Of a stretch of 64,000 nt of DNA, positions 7,926-21,198 are shown one piece after another. The notes under the pieces were generated by a model. That model had not been told where the DNA came from. It worked only from the letters and a program-made list of their open reading frames with translations, and made no database searches. The translations under genes and the position numbers were made by a program. Position 1 is the stretch's first letter; each line of letters starts with the position of its first letter. The stretch lies in the NCBI GenBank assembly GCA_050734155.1, contig JBOHUD010000023.1, positions 15,726-79,725 on the forward strand, given 5' to 3'. Source of the DNA: Candidatus Dormibacteria bacterium (GTDB lineage: Bacteria > Chloroflexota > Dormibacteria > Aeolococcales > Aeolococcaceae).

Positions 7926-8960
7926 CTACTCCCGCCCGTGGGACAGCCGTTCGCGCTGGGGAACAATGGTGTATCTCGGGTCGCGCGCGGACGCCTGCCC
8001 CGCCTCGAAGATGCCGAAGCGTAGACAGGCGGATCCCGCCAGCAGCGCCGCTCCCGATGCCGCGGCAAGCACGCGGCTGCGCCCACCGAGCACCAGCCCA
8101 CCGATGGCGCCCGCGGCGGTGAGCACCCTGCTGGTGCGCATCAGCCGCCCGGCCCGGCCGGTGCGCAGCGGCTCGGCGACGATACCCATGCCGCTCTCCA
8201 GACGCCGTTCCATGCCCAGCTCGAGCAGCGCTCCACCCGCTGCCAGGAGACGTGCCGGGCGGGCCTGGGCCACGGGGGCGCCGATGATGCCAAACCCACC
8301 CGCGGCCGTCGCCGCCGAGCCCACGAACACAAAGGGCAGCTCGCGCTGCGCCGCGTGCCAGGTCGGGGTGGCGGTGTCGGAGAGCAGCACGGCGGTGTAG
8401 GAGGCCACGCCGGCTCCGAGCGCGGCGGCAGCGATCCCCGCCGGCCGGCCGGTGGCGCCCACCAGGGCACCGAGCGGGCGGGGCAGAGGGAACGGCATCT
8501 CGCTGGCGGCGGCCAGCCCGGCAAGGGGGCCGTACGCCGTGATGATCCAGGTGCCCACCGACATCGGAGAGGTTGGTTTGGCGACGCGCAGCATGTTGAG
8601 GAAGCGCTCCGGTCTGCCGAGGTCGTGGATGAGCGCGGCGAAGCCGGCCCCGATGCCCGCAAGTGCGCCGATGCGGGCCGTGCGACGCAGCGCCGGGCGG
8701 CCGGTCAGGTCCGCGCCCGCCGCGAGCATGGAGGATCCGCCCGCAAGGCCACCGAGGAAGAGGTACGCGGGGATGTCCGCCTTCCACGGCGAGTGCTTGA
8801 CCACCGGGCGGCCGTAGTACGAGGTGAACTCGGCCGGCGGCACCATGGCGCGCTCGCCACCCTCGCGGCGGCCGGTGGACCGGCCGCTGCCGTCCGACCG
8901 AGCATCCCGCGCGGCCGGGCTGCGGGTGGCTTCGCCCGGCGCTCGCGCATCCGGGGTCAT
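7926..8960 (-). CDS. NrfD/PsrC-family integral membrane subunit of formate dehydrogenase (gamma-like)
   Basis: FTSYYGRPVVKHSPWKADIPAYLFLGGLAGG is the NrfD-family N-terminal motif, followed by multiple TM helices. ATG at 8960 overlaps the beta-subunit stop as ATGA. Confidence 0.75.
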   Translation of the reverse strand: MTPDARAPGEATRSPAARDARSDGSGRSTGRREGGERAMVPPAEFTSYYGRPVVKHSPWKADIPAYLFLGGLAGGSSMLAAGADLTGRPALRRTARIGALAGIGAGFAALIHDLGRPERFLNMLRVAKPTSPMSVGTWIITAYGPLAGLAAASEMPFPLPRPLGALVGATGRPAGIAAAALGAGVASYTAVLLSDTATPTWHAAQRELPFVFVGSAATAAGGFGIIGAPVAQARPARLLAAGGALLELGMERRLESGMGIVAEPLRTGRAGRLMRTSRVLTAAGAIGGLVLGGRSRVLAAASGAALLAGSACLRFGIFEAGQASARDPRYTIVPQRERLSHGRE

Positions 8961-9853
8961 CGGCGGCCCGCGAACGCGGCTGCGGCTCCGGCGAGCAACG
9001 TCAGCCCGGCCAGCGCGGCCGTGCGCCACATCTCCGGGAGGTCCCTGGTGGTCACCACGGGGTCAGGGGGCAGGCCGTACACCTCGGGCTCGTCGAGAAG
9101 AAGGAAGAAGGCGCCGGCCCCGCCGATGCCGTCGTCATCCCCGTCCAGGTAGAGCCGGGCGTCGGCGACGCCGTGCTCGTGCAGCGTCTCGACGCGCTCG
9201 CGAGCGCGGACGCGCAACTCGTCGAGGTCGCCGAACTGGATCGATTCGGTGGGGCACGCCTGGGCGCAAGCCGGCACCATGCCCGCTCCCAGCCGGTCGT
9301 TGCAGAGAGTGCATTTCTGCGCCACCCCCGCGTTGTGCACGGTCCCGTCGCCCTCGCGGCGCTCGATGACGCCGAACGGGCAGGCCGGCACGCAGTATCC
9401 GCAGCCGTTGCAGATGTCCGCCTGGACGACGACGGTGCCGAACTCGGTGCGCATCAGGGCGCCGGTCGGGCAGACGTCGAGGCACGCCGCCTGCGTGCAG
9501 TGCTTGCACACGTCTGACGACATCAGCCAGCGGAAGTCCTGCGGCCCGTCGGGGATCGTCGCCGCCCCCACAGCCCCGCCATCACGCACGGGGAGCATGC
9601 GTATCGGCTTGCGCTGCTCGATGAAGGCGACATGCCTCCAGGTGCTGGCTCCAAGGCCGCCGGTGTTGTCGTACGAGGAGGCGAGCATGGTCAGCCCGTC
9701 CTCGGGAACGTGGTTCCATTCCTTGCACGCCACCTCACACGCCTTGCAGCCGATGCACAGCGAGGTGTCGGTGAAGAATCCCTTGCGCGGCGGAGGATCC
9801 TGCCAGCCGGCGCCGCGAGCCGCATCGAGCGGGCCGACGAAGGTGGTGCTCAC
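8957..9853 (-). CDS. fdnH: Formate dehydrogenase beta subunit (4Fe-4S ferredoxin, FdnH/HybA-like) with C-terminal TM anchor
   Basis: Four CxxCxxCxxxCP clusters (CIGCKACEVAC, CKHCTQAACLDVCP, CNGCGYCVPACP, CTLCNDR...CAQACP). C-terminal hydrophobic helix. GTG start at 9853 overlaps the alpha-subunit stop as GTGA. Confidence 0.8.
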   Translation of the reverse strand: MSTTFVGPLDAARGAGWQDPPPRKGFFTDTSLCIGCKACEVACKEWNHVPEDGLTMLASSYDNTGGLGASTWRHVAFIEQRKPIRMLPVRDGGAVGAATIPDGPQDFRWLMSSDVCKHCTQAACLDVCPTGALMRTEFGTVVVQADICNGCGYCVPACPFGVIERREGDGTVHNAGVAQKCTLCNDRLGAGMVPACAQACPTESIQFGDLDELRVRARERVETLHEHGVADARLYLDGDDDGIGGAGAFFLLLDEPEVYGLPPDPVVTTRDLPEMWRTAALAGLTLLAGAAAAFAGRR

Positions 9854-12800
9854 GGCGATGGCTCGGCCGGGGTCACACGGAGGTTGCCGGTGTCCACTGT
9901 GACCTTGGCGCGGCGGCGGTAGCCGTCGACGAAGTCCAGCAGCGCCGCCCCGGTGGGACGGCGACCCGGCTGGATGTCGCAGGTTGCCGCTTTGGACTCC
10001 TGGATGTGCACGTTGGGATCCAGCGACACGCCCAGCAGATCGTTGGCCGAGTCGCCGCTGACCACGGCTTCGCCGCCGACTCCCCAGTGGAAGGGCAGGC
10101 CGACCTGGTGGAGGACCCGCCCCCCGACCCGCAGGGGCACCATGCGGTCCGTGACCAGCACCCGCGCCTCGATGGCGGTGCGGGCGCTGACGATGGTCGC
10201 AAAGCCCCCATTGGTGAGACCACGCTCCCGCGCCAGCTCCGGCGACACCTCGCAGAAGAACTCGGGCTGCAGCTCGGACAGGTAGGGCAGCCAGCGGCTC
10301 ATGCCGCCGGCGGTGTGGTGCTCGGTCAGCCGGTAGGTGGTGACCACGAACGGGTACACATCGCTGCGGGCATCGGGAGGTGACGGGTTGGTGAGGTTCC
10401 CCTGGCGCGGGTAGATCTCGCGGGTGGGGTTGGACTGCTGGCTGTACAGCGGGTTGCGCAGCGGCGACTCCACCGGCTCGTAGTGCGCGGGCAGCGGACC
10501 GTCGAGCAGGCCGCTGGGCGCGTACAGCCACCCCTTGCCGTCCGACTGCATGATGAAGGGGTCGTCGCCGGCGAGGCCCTCCGGACCACCCACTCCCGGT
10601 TCGGGGCGGTACGAGGGCGGCTTGGTGGCCGCGAAATCGGGCACGTCATGGCCGGTCCACCGGCCCTGCTCCTCATCCCACCACACGTACGCCTTGCGCT
10701 GGCTCCAGGGCTTGCCGTCGGGGTCCGCGGAGGCGCGGTTGTAGAGGATGCGCCGGTTCATCGGCCACGACCAGCCCCATTCCGGCGCCACCCACGACTG
10801 CTCCGAGGCGGGCTTGCGTCGCGCCGACTGATTGATCCCTGCGGTGTAGACACCGGTGTAGATCCAGCAGCCGCCGTCGGTCGACCCGTCCGCCTTCATC
10901 TCGGTGAAGGAGCTGAGCATCTGGCCGCCCTTGTCCCCGCTGAGGTGGCTGCCGTTCACCTCCCGCAGCACCGCCTCCGCATCCGGCTCGCCGGCGGTCG
11001 TGACCGGGTAGTCCCAGGTGAGGTTGCGCAGGGCCAGGTCGCGCTCCTCCTGAGATGCCGCCACCCGGGCGCGCAGGGCGCGACCGAGCTCGAAGAAGAA
11101 CTGCAGCTCGGAGCGCGCGTCCCCGGGCGGGTCGACCGCCTTGTCGTGCCACTGCAGCATCCGCTGGGTCTGAGTGAAGCTGCCCTCCTTCTCGGTGTGC
11201 GCCGCGGCCGGGAGGAAGAACACCTCGGTGGCGATGTCCTGGGTGCGCAGCTCGCCGGTGGCTATCTCGGGACCGTCCTTCCAGAACGTCGCCGACTCGA
11301 TCATGTTGAAGTCGCGCACCACCAGCCACTTGAGATGCGCCATGCCGAGCCGCTGCAGCCTGCCATTCGACGAGCCGACGGCGGGGTTCTGGCCGAGCAG
11401 GAAGTAGCCCTCGACCTTGTCGTCGAGCATGTCCATGACCGTGCGGTAGGTGCCGTGGTCACCGTTGATCCGGGGAAGCCAGTCGAAGCCGAAGTCATTG
11501 TCCTGGGTGGCCGCGTCCCCGAACCATGACTTGAGCAGGCTGACCATGTAGGCGTCGGCCGCGGTCCAGAATCCCTTCTGCTGCGGGCGCGAGATGCTCT
11601 CCAGGTAGCCGCGCAGCCCCTGCTCCTCCCCCGCCCAGGGCATCGGCAGGTAGCCGGGGAGGAGGTCGAACAGGGTGGGGATGTCGGTGGAGCCCTGGAT
11701 GCTGGCGTGCCCTCGCAGGGCCATGATGCCGCCACCGGGGCGACCCATGTTGCCGAGCAGGAGCTGGATGATCGCCGCGCAGCGGATGTACTGCACACCG
11801 ACGGAGTGCTGGGTCCAGCCCACCGAGTACACGAAGGCGGTGGTCCGCTCCCGGCCGCTGTTCTCGGTGACCGCTCTGCAGACCTGGGCGAACGCCTCGG
11901 GTGCGACACCGCAGACCTGTTCCACGAGCTCGGGCGTGTAGCGAGCATAGTGCCGCTTGAGGATCTGGAAGACGCAGCGCGGATCCTGCAGCGTCTCGTC
12001 GCGGTGCACCAGGCTGTCCTCGAGCTGAGCCCCCTTGCCGCCCAGCGCATGCCCCGGCTCGTGGACCGGCTGGCCACCGCGCTTGCCGTCGACGGCCGCG
12101 CGCTTGCGCACCCGCCGGCCGCCCACCGCTGGGGCCTCCTCCACGTCGAGGTACTGCCAGCTGCTGGAGTCGTAGGTCCCCGTGGTGTGGTCGTACCCGG
12201 AGAACAGGCCGTCGAGCTCATCGACGTCCTTGAAGTCATCACCCACCAGCGTCGCCGCGTTGGTGTAGCTCACCACGTACTCTCGGAAGTACGTCTCGGT
12301 GCTGAGGATGTGGTTGATGATCGCGCCGAGGAAGACGATGTCACTGCCGGCGCGCAGCGGCACGTGGAGATCGGCCAGCGCCGAGGTGCGGGTGAAGCGG
12401 GGATCGACGTGGATGATCGTCGCCCCCCGTGCCTTGGCCTCCATGACCCACTGGAAGCCGACGGGATGGCACTCCGCCATGTTCGATCCCTGGATGACGA
12501 TGCAGTCGGAGTTCTGCAGGTCCTGCTGGAAGGTGGTCGCGCCGCCCCTACCGAACGAGGTCCCCAGACTGGGGACAGTGGAGCTGTGTCAAATACGGGC
12601 CTGGTTCTCCACCTGCACCACTCCGGCGGCGGTGAAGAGCTTCTTGATCAGGTAGTTCTCTTCGTTGTCGAGCGTGGCTCCTCCGAGGCTGGCGACCGCC
12701 ATCGTCCGGCGCAGCGGATGCCCCATCTCGTCCGCCTCCTGCCAGGTGCGTGCGCGGCTGTCGATCAGGCGGTCGGCGATCATCTCCACGGCGCGGTGCA

Positions 12801-13158
12801 GGGGCAGGTCCTCCCAGTCGGTCGCGTGGGGCGGCCGATATCTCACCGTGGTGACCCGCCTCGGGTTGTTCACCAGCTGCTCGCTGGCCGCGCCCTTGGG
12901 GCAGAGCCGTCCCCGCGAGACGGGCGAATCCGGGTTGCCCTCGATCTGCACGACCTTCTCATCCTTCACGTACACCCGCTGGCCGCAGCCCACCGCGCAG
13001 TAGGGACAGACGCTGTGCACCACCCGGTCAGCGGTGAGGGTGCGCGGCGTCAGCGCCGCGGTCGCGCCGGATTGCACCGCCTCGCCACGGCCCAGGCCAT
13101 CCGGTCCGGTCAGCTGGCGCAGCACCGGCCAGGAGCGAAGTCTGCTGAACGCGTCCAT
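9850..13158 (-). CDS. fdnG: Formate dehydrogenase alpha subunit, selenocysteine-containing (FdnG/FdoG-like molybdopterin oxidoreductase); in-frame UGA (Sec) at 12591-12589
   Basis: ORFs 12589-13158 and 9850-12480 are one reading frame split by TGA. Translation across the TGA gives ...VENQARI-U-HSSTVPSLGTSFGRGGATTFQQDLQNSDCIVIQGSNMAECHPVGFQW, collinear with E. coli FdnG ...ENQARV-U-HGPTVASLAPTFGRGAMTNHW...AAEAHPVGFRW. The N-terminal CPYCAVGCG 4Fe-4S motif is present. selA, selB, selC and selD lie adjacent. Confidence 0.85.
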
Positions 13159-13242: not shown

Positions 13243-13869
13243 TCAGACGGGGATCTTGAAGCCGGCCGAGAAGTTCAGGGTGACGCCGAACATGAGGTAC
13301 ATGAGCCAGAGCCCGGTGGCGATGTGGAAGAAGCCCAGCAAGCGCTCACCCAGGCCGACGGGGCCCAGCGTGAGGCTGGCCGCGATGTCGCTGAGGTAGA
13401 TCAGCGTGAGGCCAAGGAAGAGGCCGCCGACGCCGGCATCGCCGACATCGAAGAACACGATCATCCCCAGGATGGAGATGAGGGCGAACGCCACCGCCAT
13501 GAAGCCGTTCGGCTGCGGCGAGGCCCCGCGCAGCCGGTTGAACCCGATGGCAAACCAGTGCACGCCGTAGGCGGTGAAGGCGAGGGCGGCCATGTACAGG
13601 GGGTGGTCGCTGAAGGAGTGGAACCAGGCCAGACCGACGAACAGATAGGTCCCGGCCAGGAACTGCAGGAACCCGGGCATCCAGATGCCCCACACGCCGG
13701 TCGACAGGTCGACGCGCTCATTGCGGGCTGGGAACTTGAACAGCTCCTGGGGGCCGTAGATGAGGTAGCCGGTGCCCAGGCCGAAGAAGCCGAGGGCCAG
13801 GGGCGGGAACGCCGAGGTGGGGAGGCTGACGACGCTGCTGAGCAACACGGGTATCCTCCAGACAGCCAT
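13243..13869 (-). CDS. AceTr (GPR1/FUN34/YaaH, SatP-like) family membrane transporter; possibly carboxylate/formate uptake
   Basis: Six predicted TM helices. FPPLALGFFGLG and AFTAYGVHWFA resemble the SatP motifs NPAPLGLMGFG and AFTSYGSFWL. Sits between fdhD and fdnG on the same strand. Confidence 0.5.
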   Translation of the reverse strand: MAVWRIPVLLSSVVSLPTSAFPPLALGFFGLGTGYLIYGPQELFKFPARNERVDLSTGVWGIWMPGFLQFLAGTYLFVGLAWFHSFSDHPLYMAALAFTAYGVHWFAIGFNRLRGASPQPNGFMAVAFALISILGMIVFFDVGDAGVGGLFLGLTLIYLSDIAASLTLGPVGLGERLLGFFHIATGLWLMYLMFGVTLNFSAGFKIPV

Positions 13870-13953: not shown

Positions 13954-14799
13954 TCACCCCGCGGCCGCCTCCTCCACGCCCGCTCCGACCGCGACGACTC
14001 GCTGCTGGGCCGTGTAGACGTTCATCTGCTCGCCGCGCAGGAAGCCCACCAGCGTCATCCCGCTCTCCTCGGCGAGCTGCACGGCGAGGCTTGACGGCGC
14101 CGACACAGCGGCCAGCAGCGGGATGCCGGCCATCAGAGCCTTCTGGGTCAGCTCGAAGCTGGCTCGCCCCGACGCCAGGATGATGTGGGAGCGCAGCGGC
14201 AGCCGGCGCTGGGTCGCGGCCCAGCCGATCACCTTGTCGAACGCGTTGTGACGGCCGACATCCTCGCGCACGCAGACCAGCGTCCCACCTCCATCGAACA
14301 GTGCCGCGGCGTGCAGTCCGCCGGTGCGGGCGAACATCTTCTGAGCGCCCCGCAGCGTGCCCGGCAGCGCGGCGAGCAATGCTGGAGAGACGACCAGCGG
14401 ATCGCCCGAGACGTCGTGGCGCGAGCGCGTCCGCACCGCGTCGATGCTCGCCTTTCCGCAGACACCGCAGGACGAGGTCATGAAGAAGTTGCGCTGCCCC
14501 ACCGCCGCTGATCCCGCCGCCACCAGACGGACCTCGACGACGTTGAAGCCGCCCCCCGCATCGGCCTGGTGGGGGCACATCCGCATCGAGGCGATGTCGC
14601 CGGCGCCCTCGATGATGCCCTCGGTGACGAGGAAGCCGGCGGCGAGGTCGAAATCGGCGCCGGGGGTGCGCATGGTCACGGTGAGCGGCACACCGTCGAG
14701 CCGTATCTCCAGTGGCTCCTCGGCGCTGAGCTCGTCGGTGATCCAGCGCGCGTCGCCGGCCACGCCCACCTGTCGCACTCGCCGGCGCAGCCCCGTCAT
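13954..14799 (-). CDS. fdhD: Formate dehydrogenase accessory sulfurtransferase FdhD
   Basis: 281 aa with FdhD family motifs (SSCGVCGK catalytic Cys loop, GRHNAFDK). Lies upstream of the FDH structural genes. Confidence 0.8.
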   Translation of the reverse strand: MTGLRRRVRQVGVAGDARWITDELSAEEPLEIRLDGVPLTVTMRTPGADFDLAAGFLVTEGIIEGAGDIASMRMCPHQADAGGGFNVVEVRLVAAGSAAVGQRNFFMTSSCGVCGKASIDAVRTRSRHDVSGDPLVVSPALLAALPGTLRGAQKMFARTGGLHAAALFDGGGTLVCVREDVGRHNAFDKVIGWAATQRRLPLRSHIILASGRASFELTQKALMAGIPLLAAVSAPSSLAVQLAEESGMTLVGFLRGEQMNVYTAQQRVVAVGAGVEEAAAG

Positions 14800-14841: not shown

Positions 14842-15828
14842 TCAGCGGACCTCGATCGAGTGCTCGCGGCGGGGCACCAGCTCGCCGATGACCTGCGCTC
14901 TGTCGAGCTGTCCCGCGATGAGCAGGCCGCCACTGGTCTGCGCATCGGCGAGCAGCAGCCGTTCCGACTCGGCGGTGGCGGCACGCCCGCGCCACTCCAC
15001 GTGGGCGTCGACCCAGGCCAGGTTGCGACGGGTGCCGCCGCTGACGAAGCCGTCGGCAAGCGCCTCGCGGGCGCCCTCGAGGTAGGGCACCGAGTCGGCA
15101 TCGATGATCGCGGTGACGTTGCTGGCGCGGGCCAGCTTGAAGAGGTGCCCGAGCAGCCCGAACCCGGTGACGTCGGTCGCGCAGCGCACGCCCGCCGCCA
15201 CCGCCGCCTCCGACGCGTCCCGGTTGAGCCGGGTCATGGTTGCCACCGCCTCGGGAAAGACCTCGCCCGTCTGCTTGTGACGGCTGTTGAGCACCCCGAT
15301 GCCGAGCGGCTTGGTGAGCGAGAGCGGCGTACCGGCCATGCCCAGGTCGATGCGCAGGAGGCGGTCGGCGGGGGCGACGCCGCTCACCGCCATGCCGTAC
15401 TTCGGTTCAGGGTCGTCGACGCTGTGACCGCCGGCGACCGGGCAGTCGGCGGCCGTGGCCACCTCGAGACCACCGCGCAGGACCTCGGCGGCGAGCTCGA
15501 GCGGCAGCACCTCGCGCGGCCAGCAGAGCAGGTTGACGGCCAGCACCGGACGCCCGCCCATGGCGTAGATGTCGGACAGGGCGTTGGCGGCGGCGATGCG
15601 CCCCCAGTCGTACGCGTCGTCGACGACCGGGGTGAAGAAGTCGACCGTGCTCAGCAGTGCGGTGCCGCCGTCGCCGAGGCGGACCGCGGCCGCGTCGTCG
15701 CCGCCGTCCAGCCCCACCAGCAGCGAGCCATGCGGTGTCCCGACCAGCCCGGCCACGATCTGCTCCAGCTCACCGGGCGGGATCTTGCAGGCGCAACCGC
15801 CGCCGTGCGCGTAACCCGTGAGACGCAT
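14842..15828 (-). CDS. selD: Selenide, water dikinase (selenophosphate synthetase) SelD, Cys-type
   Basis: MRLTGYAHGGGCACKIPPGEL matches E. coli SelD [23 protein letters not shown]. PurM-like fold. Start at ATG 15828, checked in the sequence. Confidence 0.8.
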   Translation of the reverse strand: MRLTGYAHGGGCACKIPPGELEQIVAGLVGTPHGSLLVGLDGGDDAAAVRLGDGGTALLSTVDFFTPVVDDAYDWGRIAAANALSDIYAMGGRPVLAVNLLCWPREVLPLELAAEVLRGGLEVATAADCPVAGGHSVDDPEPKYGMAVSGVAPADRLLRIDLGMAGTPLSLTKPLGIGVLNSRHKQTGEVFPEAVATMTRLNRDASEAAVAAGVRCATDVTGFGLLGHLFKLARASNVTAIIDADSVPYLEGAREALADGFVSGGTRRNLAWVDAHVEWRGRAATAESERLLLADAQTSGGLLIAGQLDRAQVIGELVPRREHSIEVR

Positions 15829-15900
15829 CGCAGCGAGTGTTGCACAGGCGCGCGACCAGCCATCGCCGCGGCCTCCGGCCGCGCCGGTACCCTGTGCGGC

Positions 15901-15995
15901 GGAGGTGTGTGGGCGCCTGGTGGCCCTCCTGATCTTCAAAATCAGTGTGGCCGGGCATCTCGGCCAGGCGGGTTCGATTCCCGTCCGCCTCCGCC
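15901..15995 (+). tRNA. selC: tRNA-Sec (selC), anticodon TCA
   Basis: Acceptor stem ggaggtg pairs with cgcctcc, discriminator G. Anticodon arm ctgat-cTTCAaaa-atcag carries TCA. Long variable arm tggccg-ggcatct-cggcca. T arm gcggg-TTCGATT-cccgt. Length about 93 nt. Located between selD and selA (selA starts at 16014). Confidence 0.75.
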
Positions 15996-16013
15996 CGGCG
16001 AGGTGCCAGCATC

Positions 16014-17297
16014 ATGTCCGTGGACCCCCGTCGCGCCGTGCCCCCCACCGACGCCGTGCTCGCCGACCCGCGGCTGCGCGAGGTGCAGCACCGCCTCGGC
16101 CGGACGCTGGTGCTGGCCACCGTGCGCGAGGCCCAGCAGCGCGTCCGCGGCGGCGCGCTCGAGCCGGCGGCCATCATCGACGACGTGCTCCAGCACGTCC
16201 CCCCGCGAGCGGCGACCATGCGCCCGGTGCTGAACGCCACCGGGGTGGTGCTGCACACCAACCTCGGTCGGGCCGCCCTCTCCGCGGCCGCGCGCGAGGC
16301 GGTGGTCGCCGCCACCGGCTACGTCGACGTCGAGTACGACCTCCGCACCGGGGCGCGAGCGCCGCGCGGCCGCGGCGCGGTGGCGGCGCTCAGGGCTGCG
16401 CTGCCCGACGCCGGCGATGTCCACGTCGTCAACAACGGGGCCGCAGCCCTCCTGCTGGCCGTCACCGCGCTGGCGCAGGGACGCGAGGTGGTGTGGAGCC
16501 GGGGTGAGATGGTCGAGATCGGCGACGGCTTCCGCCTCCCCGAGCTGGTGGCGTCCGCCGGCGCCAGGGTGTGTGAGGTGGGCACCACCAACCGCACCGT
16601 GCGGGCCGACTACACGGCGGCGATCGGCGAGCGCGCCGGCTGCGTGCTCAGGGTGCACCCCTCCAACTTCCGCGTGACCGGCTTCACCGCGTCGGTCGGC
16701 GTGTCCGAGCTGGTCGACCTGGGCGTGCCTGTGGTGGTCGATGTGGGCTCCGGCCTGCTCACCGCCAACCCGCTGCTGCCCGACGAGCCCGACATCAGCA
16801 CCGCGCTGCGCGCCGGCGCGCACCTGGTGACCGCCAGCGGCGACAAGCTGCTCGGGGGCCCGCAGGCCGGCATCATCGCCGGTGACGCCGAGATCGTGGA
16901 CCGGCTGCGCCGCCACCCCATGGCACGGGCGCTGCGCGTGGACAAGCTCACCCTCGCTGCCCTCGAGGCGACGCTGGCAGGACCGGCGACGCCCACCGCG
17001 GCCGCGCTGCGCATCGGCACCGACGGGCTGCGGGCGCGAGCCCTGGCCATCGCCTCGCGGCTGGGCGGCGACGCCGCGGCGGTGCCCAGCGACGGAGCTG
17101 TCGGCGGCGGAAGCGCGCCCGGCGTCACCCTTTCCGGCTGGGCCGTGAGCCTGCCGGAGCGGCTGGTCGCCCCACTGCGCAGCGGCGACCCGGCAGTGGT
17201 TGGCCGCGTCGAGCGTGGCCGCTGCCTGCTCGATCTTCGCTGCATCCCTGAAGCGGACGACGCTGCGCTTGTCGGGGCGGTGCTGGCGTGCATGTGA
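16014..17297 (+). CDS. selA: L-seryl-tRNA(Sec) selenium transferase SelA
   Basis: PLP-dependent SelA family, with the GDKLLGGPQAGII Lys-containing motif. ATG 16014 chosen as start. Confidence 0.8.
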   Translation: MSVDPRRAVPPTDAVLADPRLREVQHRLGRTLVLATVREAQQRVRGGALEPAAIIDDVLQHVPPRAATMRPVLNATGVVLHTNLGRAALSAAAREAVVAATGYVDVEYDLRTGARAPRGRGAVAALRAALPDAGDVHVVNNGAAALLLAVTALAQGREVVWSRGEMVEIGDGFRLPELVASAGARVCEVGTTNRTVRADYTAAIGERAGCVLRVHPSNFRVTGFTASVGVSELVDLGVPVVVDVGSGLLTANPLLPDEPDISTALRAGAHLVTASGDKLLGGPQAGIIAGDAEIVDRLRRHPMARALRVDKLTLAALEATLAGPATPTAAALRIGTDGLRARALAIASRLGGDAAAVPSDGAVGGGSAPGVTLSGWAVSLPERLVAPLRSGDPAVVGRVERGRCLLDLRCIPEADDAALVGAVLACM

Positions 17298-19084
17298 TCG
17301 CCACCGCCGGGCATGTCGATCACGGCAAGTCCACTCTGGTGCGGGCGCTGACCGGCATGGAGCCCGACCGCTGGGCGGAGGAACGCCGCCGGGGCATGAC
17401 GATCGACCTTGGCTACGCCTGGACGCGGCTCCCCTCGGGCGCGGAGGTGGCCTTCGTCGACGTGCCCGGCCATGAACGCTTTGCCACCAACATGCTGGCC
17501 GGCGTCGGCCCGGTGCCGGCGGTGCTCCTGGTGATCGCCGCCGACCAGGGCTGGGCCGCCCAGACCGAGGACCACGTTGGCGCGCTCCACGCCCTCGGCG
17601 TCCGCCACGGCCTGGTCGCAGTCTCGCGCAGCGATCTCGCCGATCCCGCGGGCGCGATGGAACAGGCCCGGGTGCGCCTGCGCGGCACCAGCCTCGCGGG
17701 CATCCCCGCCATCGCTGTCTCCGGCGCCACCGGCGCGGGGCTCGATGAGCTGCGCGTCGCTCTCGACGAGCTTGCCGGACGATTGCCCCACCCCGATCCC
17801 GGCGCCCGGGTGAGGCTCTGGCTCGATCGCTGCTTCACCATCCGCGGCGCCGGCACCGTGGTGACGGGCACCCTGCCGGCGGGAACCATCCGGCGCGGCG
17901 ACACCCTCGAGCTGGCCGGCCGCCCGGTGACGGTGCGCGGCCTGCAGTGCCTCGGCACCGCCGTCGACGAGGTGACCGGGACAGCCCGCGTCGCCCTCAA
18001 CCTCCGCGCCGTGGGCCATGACGAGGTGCGCCGCGGGGACGCGCTGCTCACCCCGCGAGCCTGGCGGCGCAGCAACGTCGTCGACGTGCGCGCCGACACC
18101 GGCGCCGTGCCGTCTCGGCTGGTGGTCCACCTCGGCTCGGCGGCCACCCCAGCCGTCGCCCGTCCGCTGCTCGACGGTCCGCCGCTCGCTCACGCGATCG
18201 TGCGGCTGCGGCTCCGGGTGCCGCTGGCGCTGCAGGTGGGCGACCGCATCCTGCTCCGCGATCCCGGCCGCCGCCTCGTGGTGGCCGGCGCGACCGTGCT
18301 CGACCCGGCGCCTCCGCCGCTGCGCCGGCGCGGCGCCGCCCGCGCCCGCGCTGCCGCGCTCCGCGACGACCGAGGCACACCCAGCCTCGAGCGCGAGCTG
18401 TCGCGGCGCGGCGCGGCGCCCGCTGCCCTGCTCCAGGAGCTGGGCGTGCCCGTTGCCGAACCCCTGCCTGGAGTCGCCGTCGGGGTCGCCGGCTGGATCG
18501 TCGACCGCGTGCTGTGGGAGAGGTGGGGGCGGCAGCTGGCAGCGGCGGTCGAAACGCGGCCGTCAGCGGGCCCGCTCGATGCCGGGGTCAGCCGCGCGGA
18601 GCTGGTCGCGGCCCTGGCCCTGCCGGACGAGCGTCTCCTGCCCGAGCTCCTGGCGACGCAGCCCGGCGTCGAGGAGGATCGCGGCCGGGTCAGGCTCCGC
18701 GGCACCGCCGCCGCCCTGCGTCCCGACGTGGCCGCCGCCGTCGCTCGCCTCGTGGCTTGCCTGCGCGAGCAGCCGTTCAGTGCCCCGGAACAGACCGGGC
18801 TCGCTGCGCTGGGGCTCAGCCGCCGCGAGCTGGGCGCCGCGGCGTCCGCCGGCGCGATCCTGCGGCTGCCGGGCGACATCGTCCTCCTGCCCGACGCACC
18901 TCGCGAGGCCGCGCTGCGCCTGCGCGGCCTCCCCCAGCCGTTCACGCTGTCGGCCGCGCGCCAGGCACTGGGCACCACCCGGCGCGTCGCCGTGCCCCTG
19001 CTCGAGCATCTCGACTCCCTGCGCGTCACCGAGCGCATCGACGAGGGCCGGCGCCGGCTGCGCACCCCGGTGCCGCCGCCATGA
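17288..19084 (+). CDS. selB: Selenocysteine-specific elongation factor SelB
   Basis: N-terminal GTPase AGHVDHGKSTL followed by SelB winged-helix C-terminal domains. GTG start overlaps the selA 3' end. Confidence 0.85.
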   Translation: MHVIATAGHVDHGKSTLVRALTGMEPDRWAEERRRGMTIDLGYAWTRLPSGAEVAFVDVPGHERFATNMLAGVGPVPAVLLVIAADQGWAAQTEDHVGALHALGVRHGLVAVSRSDLADPAGAMEQARVRLRGTSLAGIPAIAVSGATGAGLDELRVALDELAGRLPHPDPGARVRLWLDRCFTIRGAGTVVTGTLPAGTIRRGDTLELAGRPVTVRGLQCLGTAVDEVTGTARVALNLRAVGHDEVRRGDALLTPRAWRRSNVVDVRADTGAVPSRLVVHLGSAATPAVARPLLDGPPLAHAIVRLRLRVPLALQVGDRILLRDPGRRLVVAGATVLDPAPPPLRRRGAARARAAALRDDRGTPSLERELSRRGAAPAALLQELGVPVAEPLPGVAVGVAGWIVDRVLWERWGRQLAAAVETRPSAGPLDAGVSRAELVAALALPDERLLPELLATQPGVEEDRGRVRLRGTAAALRPDVAAAVARLVACLREQPFSAPEQTGLAALGLSRRELGAAASAGAILRLPGDIVLLPDAPREAALRLRGLPQPFTLSAARQALGTTRRVAVPLLEHLDSLRVTERIDEGRRRLRTPVPPP

Positions 19085-19948: not shown

Positions 19949-19998
19949 GGTCTGATGATGACGCCATGGTGAGCGTCGCTCGTCCCCCGAGCGCGGCG

Positions 19999-21198
19999 AT
20001 GAGCGTCGCGGACGCCCGCGCGAAGCTGCTGGAAGGGCTGTGCCCGCTGCCCGGCGAGGACGTGACGCTGACCCTCGCGCTCGGCCGGGTCCTGGCCGGC
20101 GAGGTGCGCGCGCAGACCGACCTGCCGGGCACCGACAACTCGGCCATGGACGGCTACGCGGTGGTCTCCGCAGAGATCGCCGGCGCCACGGCCACCTCCC
20201 CGGTGCGGCTGGCGCGGGGAGCAGAGAGCCGAGCCGGCCACCCGGCGCCCGAGCACCGAGCGGGCACCGCCACTCTCATCGCCACCGGCGCCCCGATTCC
20301 ACGCGGCGCCGACGCGGTCGTCGCCTTCGAGCAGACGGAGCAGGAAGGCGCTGCGGTGGTGTTCGCGGCCGAGGCAGACTCTGGCCAGCACATCCGCAAC
20401 CGCGGCGAGGACATCTGCGCGGGAACCGTTGTCATGGCGGCGGGCCGGCGGCTGCGCAGCGTCGACCTCGGCGTGTGTGCCGCCGCCGGGCTGGCGCGCG
20501 TTCGTGTGGCGCGGCGGCCGCGCGTGGCCCTGCTCAGCAGCGGTGACGAGCTGGTCGAGCCGGGCACGGCGCCGCAGCCGCACCAGGTCACCGACGTCAA
20601 CAGCGCCATGCTCGCCGCGGCGGTGCAGGAGGCGGGCGGGGTGCCCGTGCCCCTGGGCGTGGTCGGCGACGATCGCAGCGCCGTGCTGCTCGCCCTGGAG
20701 AAGGCCCGTGACAGCGCCGACCTGGTGGTGAGCAGCGCCGGGGTGAGCATGGGCGGGCATGACCATGTCCGCGACTGCGTTGCCCAGCTCGGCTCGGTCG
20801 ATCTCTGGACGGTGGCGATGCGTCCCGGCAAGCCGCTGGTCATCGGCCGGGTCGGCCAGACGCCCTTCGTGGGACTGCCCGGCAACCCGGTGAGCAGCGC
20901 GGTGACCTTCCTGCTCTTTGCGCGGGCCGCGATCCTGGCCCTGCAGGGCGCCGACCGGCTGCTGCCCCGGACATTGCCGGTGGTCCTCGGCGAGCCGTTC
21001 GAGAAGCCCGCTCACCTGGAGACCTACCTGCGGGTGCGTCTGGAGAGCAACGGACGCGACCTCGTGGCGCGCTCCAGCGGTGGCCAGGGGTCGGCGATGA
21101 TGCACGGGCTGGGCGCCGCGGAGGCGCTGCTGGTGCTGCCCGTTGGCGGCAGCTCCTTTCCCTGCGGTGCACCGGCAACGGCCCTGCAGCTGCCATGA
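19999..21198 (+). CDS. moeA: Molybdopterin molybdenumtransferase MoeA
   Basis: DLPGTDNSAMDGYAV and GDEL motifs; MoeA domain order. Internal ATG 19999 preferred over the ORF-track start at 19966. Confidence 0.8.
   Translation: MSVADARAKLLEGLCPLPGEDVTLTLALGRVLAGEVRAQTDLPGTDNSAMDGYAVVSAEIAGATATSPVRLARGAESRAGHPAPEHRAGTATLIATGAPIPRGADAVVAFEQTEQEGAAVVFAAEADSGQHIRNRGEDICAGTVVMAAGRRLRSVDLGVCAAAGLARVRVARRPRVALLSSGDELVEPGTAPQPHQVTDVNSAMLAAAVQEAGGVPVPLGVVGDDRSAVLLALEKARDSADLVVSSAGVSMGGHDHVRDCVAQLGSVDLWTVAMRPGKPLVIGRVGQTPFVGLPGNPVSSAVTFLLFARAAILALQGADRLLPRTLPVVLGEPFEKPAHLETYLRVRLESNGRDLVARSSGGQGSAMMHGLGAAEALLVLPVGGSSFPCGAPATALQLP

What the first reader, a model, noticed from the sequence alone, without database searches (positions are those of the whole stretch)
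9850..13158. Selenocysteine (UGA) recoding in the formate dehydrogenase alpha subunit; two ORFs are one gene
The ORF track splits fdnG at a TGA (plus-strand 12589-12591, read on the minus strand). Translating through it gives ENQARI-U-HSSTVPSLGTSFGRGG..., collinear with the E. coli FdnG Sec196 region ENQARV-U-HGPTVASLAPTFGRGA. Eleven nt downstream of the UGA the mRNA contains a perfect hairpin GUCCCC-AGUCU-GGGGAC (plus-strand 12560-12576), placed like a bacterial SECIS. selD, selC, selA and selB lie within 5 kb, so the host almost certainly makes a Sec-FDH. The alpha subunit also has no recognisable twin-arginine motif (N-terminus MDAFSRLRSWPVLRQL...) although the beta and gamma subunits are membrane-anchored. 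That bears on the topology of the enzyme, which may be cytoplasm-facing.
Basis: partly seen in the sequence, partly recalled or inferred. Interest (0 to 1): 0.55.

Follow-up and report, generated by a model that had tools for sequence, protein, structure and literature searches.

The report
Selenocysteine formate dehydrogenase gene, split by UGA
The two reading frames are one gene for a selenium-containing formate dehydrogenase whose internal UGA is read as selenocysteine with the help of a conserved RNA hairpin; this is an ordinary, already described kind of gene, here in a soil bacterium of the phylum Dormibacterota.

Summary
A TGA at 12591..12589 (minus strand) splits a 1102-codon frame. 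Read through, that frame matches NCBIfam NF041513 (formate dehydrogenase) end to end at 1943 bits.

The TGA is not an error. The same codon is a stop in 153 of 160 related loci (146 TGA, 7 TAG) and TGC in the other 7.

The hairpin GUCCCC-AGUCU-GGGGAC is not unusually stable (z about 0), but comparison supports it as the SECIS:
- All six pairs form in 149 of 153 Sec-type genes.
- The one freely variable pair, two synonymous third positions, covaries through five pair types.
- The loop codons are always rare U-ending ones.
- The loop sits in the same register as in E. coli fdnG.
- The 7 Cys-type genes lack the hairpin.

tRNA-Sec, selA, selB, selD and fdhD lie alongside.

This kind of gene is already published for Mycobacterium and Actinomycetospora. 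The window comes from a Candidatus Dormibacteria MAG whose public gene calls keep the split.

The Tat remark also holds: none of 153 homologs has a signal peptide. The membrane subunit is NrfD/PsrC-type with long Arg-rich tails. I therefore favour a cytoplasm-facing enzyme at about 0.55. That point is unresolved in the literature and is the only mildly novel part.

The parts
9850..13158 (-). fdhA: one gene of 1102 codons for the Mo-bisPGD/[4Fe-4S] catalytic subunit of formate dehydrogenase, with Sec at codon 190
   Evidence: NF041513 at 1943 bits (cutoff 1400) over profile positions 3-1067 of 1067, running across the TGA; TIGR01553 at 961 bits. Pfam Molybdop_Fe4S4, Molybdopterin and Molydop_binding. 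Closest solved structure is 1KQF FdnG, E = 9e-217.
12589..12591 (-). UGA selenocysteine codon
   Evidence: The same codon is TGA in 146, TAG in 7 and TGC in 7 of 160 related loci. 23 database homologs end exactly at ENQARI and 84 carry Cys there.
12592..12594 (-). AUU (Ile), a rare codon immediately 5' of the UGA; conserved context signal of unknown role
   Evidence: ATT or ATA in 149 of 153 Sec-type genes and ATC in 2. In seven window genes ATC makes up 98 of 103 Ile codons.
12560..12576 (-). SECIS apical hairpin: 6-bp stem (7 bp with the A-U closing pair) and loop A-G-U-C-U, with G and U at +20/+21 after the UGA
   Evidence: 99.6% of cells paired. Pair 24-36 shows CG 34, UA 33, UG 7, GU 4, GC 2 and is never broken. 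149 of 153 genes form 6/6 pairs; CCC, RGU and YUG are each 153/153. It is the only covarying pair in an all-against-all scan. The loop is in the same register as in E. coli fdnG.
12536..12594 (-). Stretch aligned to Rfam SECIS_3 (sub-threshold)
   Evidence: RF01989 at 24.6 bits, E = 0.0011, gathering score 63, with UGA aligned to UGA. The model's lower stem is only 54% paired in this family.
8957..9853 (-). Beta subunit: four-cluster ferredoxin with one C-terminal transmembrane helix. Its GTG start overlaps the alpha stop (GTGA).
   Evidence: Fer4_11 and Fer4_7. TIGR01582 at 166 bits, below the cutoff of 335. Sequence; tail helix conserved in 68 homologs.
7926..8960 (-). Gamma subunit: 8-helix NrfD/PsrC-type quinone-reactive membrane anchor with an Arg-rich N-terminal tail. 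Its ATG overlaps the beta stop (ATGA); the public gene call starts at the inner Met, 8846.
   Evidence: PF03916. AF2 model with pLDDT 78 and 8 TM helices. Foldseek hits ActC 8k9e_C and PsrC 2vpw_C at E about 1e-4. The N-tail frame is conserved in 66 of 72 loci.
13954..14799 (-). fdhD, the sulfurtransferase that matures the FDH Mo cofactor
   Evidence: NF001943 at 335 bits; PF02634.
14842..15828 (-). selD, selenophosphate synthetase
   Evidence: TIGR00476 at 370 bits. The 328-aa gene call in the identical public contig gives the start.
15901..15995 (+). selC, tRNA-Sec with anticodon UCA
   Evidence: ARAGORN; Rfam RF01852 at 74.1 bits, gathering score 47.
16014..17297 (+). selA, selenocysteine synthase, starting about 18 nt after selC
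   Evidence: TIGR00474 at 414 bits; 427-aa call.
17294..19084 (+). selB, the Sec-specific elongation factor with the C-terminal winged-helix domain that binds the SECIS
   Evidence: TIGR00475 at 273 bits; PF09107 SelB-wing_3 at residues 547-589.

Best explanation
ORFs 12589-13158 and 9850-12480 are one gene, fdhA. It encodes the roughly 120-kDa catalytic subunit of a membrane-bound formate:quinone oxidoreductase.

Proposed mechanism (inferred from the E. coli and Moorella systems, not tested here):
- The ribosome reaches UGA at codon 190.
- The mRNA just downstream folds into a 17-nt hairpin that begins 12 nt after the UGA. Its loop presents G and U at +20/+21.
- The C-terminal winged-helix domain of SelB binds that loop and delivers Sec-tRNA(Sec).
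- The tRNA is the product of selC. It is charged with Ser, and SelA converts the Ser to Sec using selenophosphate made by SelD.
- Selenocysteine is inserted as the Mo ligand instead of termination.

All of these components are encoded within about 6.5 kb. FdhD sulfurates the cofactor.

Electrons then pass through the four-cluster beta subunit to quinone in an NrfD/PsrC-type 8-helix anchor. This is the 'FqoABC' architecture, not FdnGHI.

Shown here: gene continuity, conservation of the stop codon at this position, RNA-level selection on the hairpin, and presence of the machinery. Inferred: actual Se incorporation, SelB-hairpin contact, and quinone as acceptor.

Secondary claim, at about 0.55: alpha and beta stay on the cytoplasmic side, and the N-terminal RxWPVxRQL stretch is a remnant of a Tat signal rather than a working one.
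For: Gene continuity:
- A full-length family match runs across the stop.
- The 37 codons between the TGA and the next ATG encode the conserved HSSTVPSLGTSFGRGG block, collinear with FdnG.

Conservation of the stop:
- 153 of 160 loci from many genera have a stop at this codon and 7 have TGC.

Hairpin:
- 99.6% of cells are paired, against 94.3% in shuffles and at most 69% when the 3' partners are slid.
- The Val third position and the Gly third position covary through five pair types. Modestobacter alone has both forms: L054 GUC..GGG and L075 GUU..GGA.
- It is the only covarying pair in an all-against-all scan of 95 columns.
- The loop codon is AGU or GGU in 153 of 153 genes, although AGT is 2.4% of Ser codons in this window's genes.
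- Pro is CCC in 153 of 153, although CCG is more common in these genes.
- The 7 Cys-type genes encode VAGLG or VAALG, form only 3-5 of 6 pairs and use ordinary codons.
- The loop AGUCU is at the same codon as in E. coli fdnG.
- Rfam SECIS_3 aligns UGA to UGA.

Machinery.

Literature:
- The same split fdhA/fdoG annotation, SECIS and selC-selAB arrangement are described in mycobacteria (PMC13449736).
- Formate removal depends on Se, and FdhA1/B1/C1 are detected in the proteome of Actinomycetospora (PMC7176365).

Topology.
Against: - The hairpin's folding energy is no better than that of shuffled sequence.
- The Rfam SECIS_3 score is far below the gathering score, and the model's lower stem is not conserved.
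- Five of the six stem pairs are fixed or partly fixed by the encoded amino acids, so the covariation evidence rests on one pair plus synonymous-site invariance.
- The shuffle control ignores phylogeny.
- The Cys-type control has only 7 sequences.
- No experimental data exist for this organism.

Against the cytoplasmic orientation:
- The internal loops of gamma show no charge bias (10.0 vs 11.3 K+R).
- The beta tail ends in RR(R).
- A 2026 paper on the R. equi homolog argues for Tat export (PMC13332983).
Confidence: 0.93

Rival explanations
1. The TGA is a true stop, through sequencing error, pseudogene decay or two separate proteins, and the hairpin is incidental.
For: The public gene calls for the identical contig list two proteins of 189 and 876 aa. 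The hairpin energy is not significant.
Against: The stop is at the same codon in 153 loci from dozens of genera. The 37 codons after it are conserved coding sequence without a start codon. A complete, adjacent Sec machinery would otherwise have no purpose here. The split annotation is a known gene-caller artefact (PMC13449736).
Confidence: 0.02
2. Sec is inserted, but the hairpin is only a by-product of the peptide V-P-S/G-L-G, and SelB recognises something else.
For: Four stem pairs are invariant and fixed by Pro/Leu/Gly codons. No lower stem is conserved.
Against: Synonymous sites are constrained against the codon bias of these genomes: CCC, RGU and YUG are each 153/153. Two synonymous positions covary. 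The Cys-type relatives have a different peptide at this spot and no hairpin. The loop matches E. coli fdnG in sequence and register.
Confidence: 0.04
3. Topology rival: alpha and beta are exported and face outward as in E. coli FDH-N, using the degenerate N-terminal R-x-W-P-V stretch as a non-canonical Tat signal.
For: - All solved close relatives are periplasmic Tat substrates.
- The N-terminal region has the same length to the first Cys as the FdnG signal plus mature N-terminus.
- DeepTMHMM called a signal in the R. equi homolog, and its authors favour export.
- The beta C-tail ends in RR(R), which suits a cytoplasmic C-terminus.
- The review that named FqoABC says NrfD-like quinone sites are on the P side, with SoeC the only inverted case it notes.
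Against: - No hydrophobic region lies between W and the first Cys in 153 of 153 loci. The median maximal hydropathy is 0.58, against 1.48 for FdnG.
- RR precedes W in only 6 of 153.
- SignalP found nothing in R. equi.
- Beta has no signal.
- The gamma N-tail averages 65 aa with 11.5 K+R, and 45 of 62 have runs of at least 3 K/R. The C-tail has 6.4 K+R. The outward-facing tails of E. coli NrfD and DmsC have 0 K+R.
- FdnH itself violates the charge rule at its tail, so the beta tail is uninformative.
Confidence: 0.4

Closest known systems
Actinobacterial selenoprotein formate dehydrogenase (NCBIfam NF041513; mycobacterial 'fdhA-fdoG' FDH, PMC13449736; Actinomycetospora FDH1, PMC7176365)
   Same: Full-length family match. 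UGA at the same codon, the same SECIS position, split annotation by gene callers, selC directly upstream of selAB, selD and fdhD nearby, and beta plus NrfD-type gamma downstream.
   Different: The host is a Candidatus Dormibacteria MAG rather than an actinomycete. The best identity to GTDB species genomes is 77% (other Dormibacterota). I found no paper in the held library that mentions Sec in this phylum.
E. coli FDH-N (FdnGHI, PDB 1KQF) and its fdnG SECIS
   Same: Alpha is homologous (E = 9e-217) with Sec-His at the same place. The loop AGUCU is at the same codon after the UGA. Beta has a C-terminal tail anchor.
   Different: There is no Tat signal. Gamma is an 8-helix NrfD/PsrC protein without haem, not the 4-helix cytochrome b FdnI. 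Beta scores below the FdnH equivalog cutoff. The hairpin is a continuous 6-7 bp stem without the bulged U of the Rfam/E. coli model and without a conserved lower stem.
FqoABC, the uncharacterised formate:quinone oxidoreductase proposed by Calisto and Pereira 2021 (PMC8076601)
   Same: FdnG-like plus FdnH-like plus 8-TMH NrfD-like subunit. Actinobacteria are listed among its hosts.
   Different: That work gives no orientation for FqoABC in the passages read; it says NrfD-like quinone sites are on the P side, with SoeC the only inverted case. The features found here (no signal, cationic gamma tails) suggest the opposite.
SoeABC sulfite:quinone oxidoreductase and NarGHI nitrate reductase (cytoplasm-facing complex iron-sulfur molybdoenzymes)
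   Same: A Mo-bisPGD enzyme without an export signal. SoeC is the stated precedent for an inverted NrfD-like anchor. From my own knowledge, not checked here: NarG keeps a remnant Tat motif.
   Different: The substrate and catalytic subunit family differ. The orientation here is inferred, not shown.
UAG-encoded Sec in Geodermatophilaceae FDH (Mukai et al. 2016, cited in PMC5330540)
   Same: The same gene family, the same codon position and the same hairpin. Seven of the related loci carry TAG there.
   Different: The window uses the standard UGA and a tRNA-Sec with anticodon UCA.

Membership tests
Bacterial Sec-decoding (SelABCD + UGA + SECIS) | In-frame UGA at the position of the catalytic Sec/Cys of homologs | tested here: met
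   Aligned with FdnG U196. Homologs have TGA, TAG or TGC at this codon.
Bacterial Sec-decoding (SelABCD + UGA + SECIS) | Stem-loop shortly 3' of the UGA with G-U exposed in the apical loop | tested here: met
   17-nt hairpin starting 12 nt after the UGA. Loop RGUYU with G and U invariant in 153/153. Covariation present. Energy alone is not significant.
Bacterial Sec-decoding (SelABCD + UGA + SECIS) | tRNA-Sec, SelA, SelB (with SECIS-binding winged helix) and SelD are present | tested here: met
   Every model is above its curated cutoff.
Bacterial Sec-decoding (SelABCD + UGA + SECIS) | Selenium is actually incorporated at the UGA | not testable with these tools
   Needs 75Se labelling or mass spectrometry. 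Indirect support comes from Se-dependent formate removal in Actinomycetospora (PMC7176365).
NCBIfam NF041513 formate_DH_Act | Whole-protein score above the curated cutoff (1400 bits) | tested here: met
   1943 bits over profile positions 3-1067 of 1067.
FDH-N type (FdnGHI) | Alpha above the TIGR01553 cutoff | tested here: met
   961 bits against a cutoff of 814.
FDH-N type (FdnGHI) | Twin-arginine signal peptide on alpha | tested here: not met
   No RR plus hydrophobic region in the window or in 153 homologs.
FDH-N type (FdnGHI) | FdnH-type beta and FdnI cytochrome b gamma | tested here: not met
   Beta scores 166 bits against a cutoff of 335. Gamma is NrfD/PsrC-type.
Rfam RF01989 SECIS_3 | Covariance-model score at or above the gathering score (63 bits) | tested here: not met
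   24.6 bits in the window. No hit at gathering level in 11 related loci. The model's lower stem is 54% paired.
FqoABC (NrfD-anchored formate:quinone oxidoreductase) | FdnG-like alpha, FdnH-like beta and 8-TMH NrfD-like subunit in one operon | tested here: met
   Overlapping start/stop codons GTGA and ATGA. Domains. Eight helices and the PsrC/ActC fold. Definition in PMC8076601.
FqoABC (NrfD-anchored formate:quinone oxidoreductase) | Formate-dependent quinone reduction | not testable with these tools
   The complex is uncharacterised biochemically.

The most novel reading that the evidence does not exclude
The whole NF041513/FqoABC clade of Actinomycetota and Dormibacterota is a cytoplasm-facing (N-side) relative of FDH-N. 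On this reading alpha keeps only a remnant of its Tat signal (R-x-W-P-V-x-R-Q, at a fixed 41 residues from the first Cys). The NrfD-type anchor is inserted upside-down relative to PsrC, DmsC and NrfD, as proposed for SoeC, with its Arg-rich tails inside. Formate made inside the cell would then be oxidised there, with no redox-loop contribution to the proton motive force.
Probability: 0.55. Interest if true: 0.45.

Novelty: new member of a known kind. Interest (0 to 1): 0.2.

Why it matters
For annotation: the public record of this MAG lists two fragments (189 and 876 aa) that should be merged into one selenoprotein. The same error hides most members of this family. In a soil-metagenome scan, 73 of the 80 best matches had a stop at this codon, so naive gene calling truncates them.

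For biology: the result places Sec use and a formate-oxidising respiratory enzyme in Dormibacterota, a soil phylum known mostly from MAGs. It adds little to what is known about Sec decoding itself.

The orientation of this widespread enzyme decides whether formate oxidation conserves energy through a redox loop. It is unsettled in the literature and could be tested directly.

Tried and rejected
- Folding energy as evidence: z-scores near 0 in this G+C-rich mRNA, so I dropped it in favour of comparative evidence.
- The extended lower stem predicted by MFE and by Rfam SECIS_3: not conserved, 54% paired. RNAalifold keeps only the apical helix.
- Metagenome scan with a Cys-type query, meant to give a large Cys control set: it returned mostly Sec-type genes and only 7 TGC.
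- A simple Kyte-Doolittle TM predictor: it failed on the Ala/Gly-rich gamma, finding 4 of 8 helices. I replaced it with a family hydropathy profile and an AF2 model.
- Charge bias of the gamma internal loops: neutral.
- Charges flanking the beta tail anchor: symmetric, and the E. coli FdnH control shows the rule fails for this class.
- Hydrophobic outliers at the alpha N-termini: all lie upstream of the start in read-through frame, and none is a signal peptide.
- tRNA search in the TAG-type loci: selC is not within the fetched flanks.
- The 208-aa membrane ORF upstream of fdhA as a possible formate channel: no Pfam or NCBIfam hit, and conserved in only 2 of 160 loci.
- Profile search of gamma against PDB sequences: nothing found. 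Only the fold search gave PsrC and ActC.
- A cross-phylum test (do Fqo complexes with real Tat signals lack the cationic gamma tails?) could not be run, because distant homologs could not be retrieved with their genomic context.


Full report
**1. The observation**

On the minus strand the sequence reads ...CAG GCC CGT ATT TGA CAC AGC TCC ACT GTC CCC AGT CTG GGG ACC... The TGA is at 12591..12589 and the inverted repeat GTCCCC/GGGGAC at 12576..12560. The ORF list shows 12589-13158(-) and 9850-12480(-) in the same frame. Translation of 9850-13158 has a single internal stop. Twelve nucleotides, not eleven, separate the UGA from the stem.

The ATG at 13158 is the only possible start: an in-frame TGA lies nine codons upstream with no start codon between.

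**2. One gene**

With X at the stop, the 1102-aa product matches NCBIfam NF041513 'formate_DH_Act' at 1943 bits (cutoff 1400) over profile positions 3-1067 of 1067. It also matches TIGR01553 at 961 bits. It carries the Fe4S4, molybdopterin and dinucleotide-binding domains. Its nearest solved relative is E. coli FdnG, 1KQF, at E = 9e-217. E. coli fdnG has its own in-frame TGA at codon 196, in ...DNQARV*HGPTVASLAPTFGRGA, which is collinear with ...ENQARI*HSSTVPSLGTSFGRGG here.

**3. Not an error**

Among database homologs, 84 read through with Cys and 23 stop exactly at ENQARI.

- In 80 loci from GTDB species genomes, all 80 have a stop at this codon: 75 TGA and 5 TAG.
- In 80 metagenome loci, 71 have TGA, 2 have TAG and 7 have TGC.

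The TAG cases are Blastococcus, Modestobacter and relatives. They correspond to the published UAG-Sec recoding with tRNA-Sec(CUA) in Geodermatophilaceae (PMC5330540).

**4. The hairpin**

Its free energy is unremarkable for this composition: z = -0.02 and +0.25. The comparative evidence is strong.

- In an ungapped alignment of 81 sequences, the six stem pairs are standard pairs in 99.6% of cells. This compares with 94.3% after shuffling and at most 69% when the 3' partners are slid.
- Four pairs never vary, because Pro, Leu and Gly codons fix them.
- One pair varies on one side only (U-A or U-G).
- One pair joins the third position of a Val codon to the third position of a Gly codon, both synonymous sites. 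It takes five forms (C-G 34, U-A 33, U-G 7, G-U 4, G-C 2) and is never broken. Both forms occur within Modestobacter (L054 and L075).
- In 151 distinct Sec-type sequences, an all-against-all scan of 95 columns found no other pair with variation on both sides and at least 93% pairing, apart from artefacts of the TAG variant.
- Synonymous sites in and next to the loop are frozen against codon bias: Pro is CCC in 153/153, the loop codon is AGU or GGU in 153/153, and Leu is CUG or UUG in 153/153. In seven genes of this window AGT is 2.4% of Ser codons, GGT is 10.6% of Gly codons and CCG outnumbers CCC.
- The seven Cys-type genes encode V-A-G/A-L-G instead of V-P-S/G-L-G, form only 3-5 of the 6 pairs and use ordinary codons.
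- The loop AGUCU is the seventh and eighth codon after the UGA, in exactly the same register as in E. coli fdnG.
- Rfam SECIS_3 aligns to 12536-12594 with UGA on UGA, but at 24.6 bits against a gathering score of 63. Its lower stem and bulged U are not supported in this family. None of 11 related loci reaches the gathering score.

I conclude that the functional element is a minimal 17-nt apical hairpin with an exposed G-U. From my own knowledge, this matches the minimal E. coli SECIS and the SelB winged-helix contact, but I did not test that.

**5. The machinery and the operon**

- tRNA-Sec (UCA) is at 15901-15995.
- selD, selA, selB (with the SelB-wing_3 domain) and fdhD all score above their curated cutoffs.
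- moeA follows selB.
- selC ends about 18 nt before selA, as described for mycobacteria (PMC13449736).
- Alpha, beta and gamma are joined by overlapping GTGA and ATGA.
- Gamma is not FdnI. It carries PF03916 NrfD, and an AF2 model (pLDDT 78) has eight transmembrane helices. Foldseek matches ActC of alternative complex III and PsrC 2vpw_C.

This is the 'FqoABC' architecture that Calisto and Pereira proposed and called uncharacterised (PMC8076601).

**6. Provenance**

The 189-aa fragment and the gamma subunit are 100% identical to proteins of an NCBI MAG, GCA_974337385.1, named Candidatus Dormibacteria. That record's gene calls split alpha into 189 + 876 aa. The nearest GTDB species are other Dormibacterota at 77%.

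**7. Tat signal and orientation**

In 153 loci:

- the distance from the conserved W to the first Cys is 41 residues in 146;
- the stretch has no hydrophobic region (median maximal 12-residue hydropathy 0.58, against 1.48 for FdnG);
- RR precedes W in only 6;
- 41 have fewer than 20 open codons upstream of W;
- the few hydrophobic maxima all lie upstream of the start.

Beta has no signal either.

PsrC has both termini on the side of PsrAB, and SoeABC is the proposed inverted, N-side precedent (PMC8076601). Here the gamma tails are long and cationic. The N-tail averages 65 aa with 11.5 K+R, and 45 of 62 have runs of at least three K/R. The C-tail has 6.4 K+R. The outward-facing tails of E. coli NrfD and DmsC have none.

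The N-tail is translated in most loci. Its frame is conserved in 66 of 72 despite lengths of 14-452 nt, the frame is open in 71 of 72, and the alternative inner start is a non-start codon in 11 of 70.

Several points weigh against this or are neutral. The internal loops show no bias. The beta tail is flanked by positive charges on both sides, and FdnH shows that this criterion is unreliable. The authors of a 2026 study of the R. equi homolog, where SignalP found nothing and DeepTMHMM found a signal, favour Tat export (PMC13332983).

I put a cytoplasm-facing enzyme at about 0.55.

**8. Comparison and verdict**

Sec-FDH of this family, its SECIS, the split annotation and the adjacent sel genes are published: PMC13449736; PMC7176365, which includes Se-dependent formate removal; and PMC1794560 on Sec use across bacteria. 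The family has a curated NCBI model.

The finding is correct and well read, but ordinary. It is a new member of the family, apparently the first noted in Dormibacterota in the library I could search.

The only open question it touches is the orientation of the NrfD-anchored FDH.

Noticed in passing
L027:6550, L054:6547, L064:4584, L066:1813, L075:6547, plus two of L081-L160: The Sec codon is TAG instead of TGA in Blastococcus, Modestobacter and related loci, with the same hairpin downstream. In all 7 the preceding codon is ATA. This matches the published UAG-Sec recoding in Geodermatophilaceae.
   Followed up: partly
window 12592-12594 (-): The codon before the Sec codon is the rare ATT or ATA in 149 of 153 Sec-type genes and ATC in only 2. 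ATC is 95% of Ile codons in this window's genes, and the Cys-type genes have GTC, GTG or ATC. This is a conserved U/A immediately 5' of the UGA. Its role is unknown (a pause, or release-factor or SelB context?).
   Followed up: partly
window 8847-8960 (-): The NrfD-type gamma has an Arg/Gly-rich N-terminal extension, disordered in the AF2 model, whose start overlaps the beta stop (ATGA). The public annotation starts 38 codons later, at an inner Met. Frame conservation across 72 loci says the extension is translated.
   Followed up: yes
window 13243-13869 (-): An ORF of 201-208 aa lies between fdhD and fdhA. It is very hydrophobic (about six helices by eye) and has no Pfam or NCBIfam match even at E = 10. 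It is conserved in only 2 of the 160 related loci (L079, L103). Function unknown.
   Followed up: partly
window 15828-16014: selC sits in the divergent gap between selD (-) and selA (+). The longest ORFs of both genes run over the tRNA, so naive ORF calls overlap it. selA starts about 18 nt after the tRNA, as in mycobacteria, where co-transcription and a regulatory role have been proposed.
   Followed up: partly
L081-L160 (soil and other metagenome contigs): Even with a Cys-type query, 73 of the 80 best metagenome matches carry a stop at the Sec codon. In these samples the Sec form of this FDH seems much commoner than the Cys form, and it is truncated by standard gene calling.
   Followed up: no
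proteins P0001, P0009, P0028, P0078: Four database proteins have W, L, G or R at the Sec position but the Sec-type context (VP[SG]LG). Each residue is one base away from TGA. They may be sequencing errors, recent mutations or read-through translations; the source gives no detail.
   Followed up: no
proteins P0007, P0010, P0013: These roughly 549-aa proteins (P0007 and P0013 from Streptomyces) combine the FDH N-terminal region with an F420-dependent LLM oxidoreductase domain (PF00296). They look like frameshifted or fused gene calls.
   Followed up: no
window 19966-21195 (+): moeA (molybdopterin molybdotransferase) follows selB, after a small DUF6457 gene seen in the identical public contig. 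Cofactor insertion, Sec synthesis and the FDH structural genes therefore form one neighbourhood.
   Followed up: no
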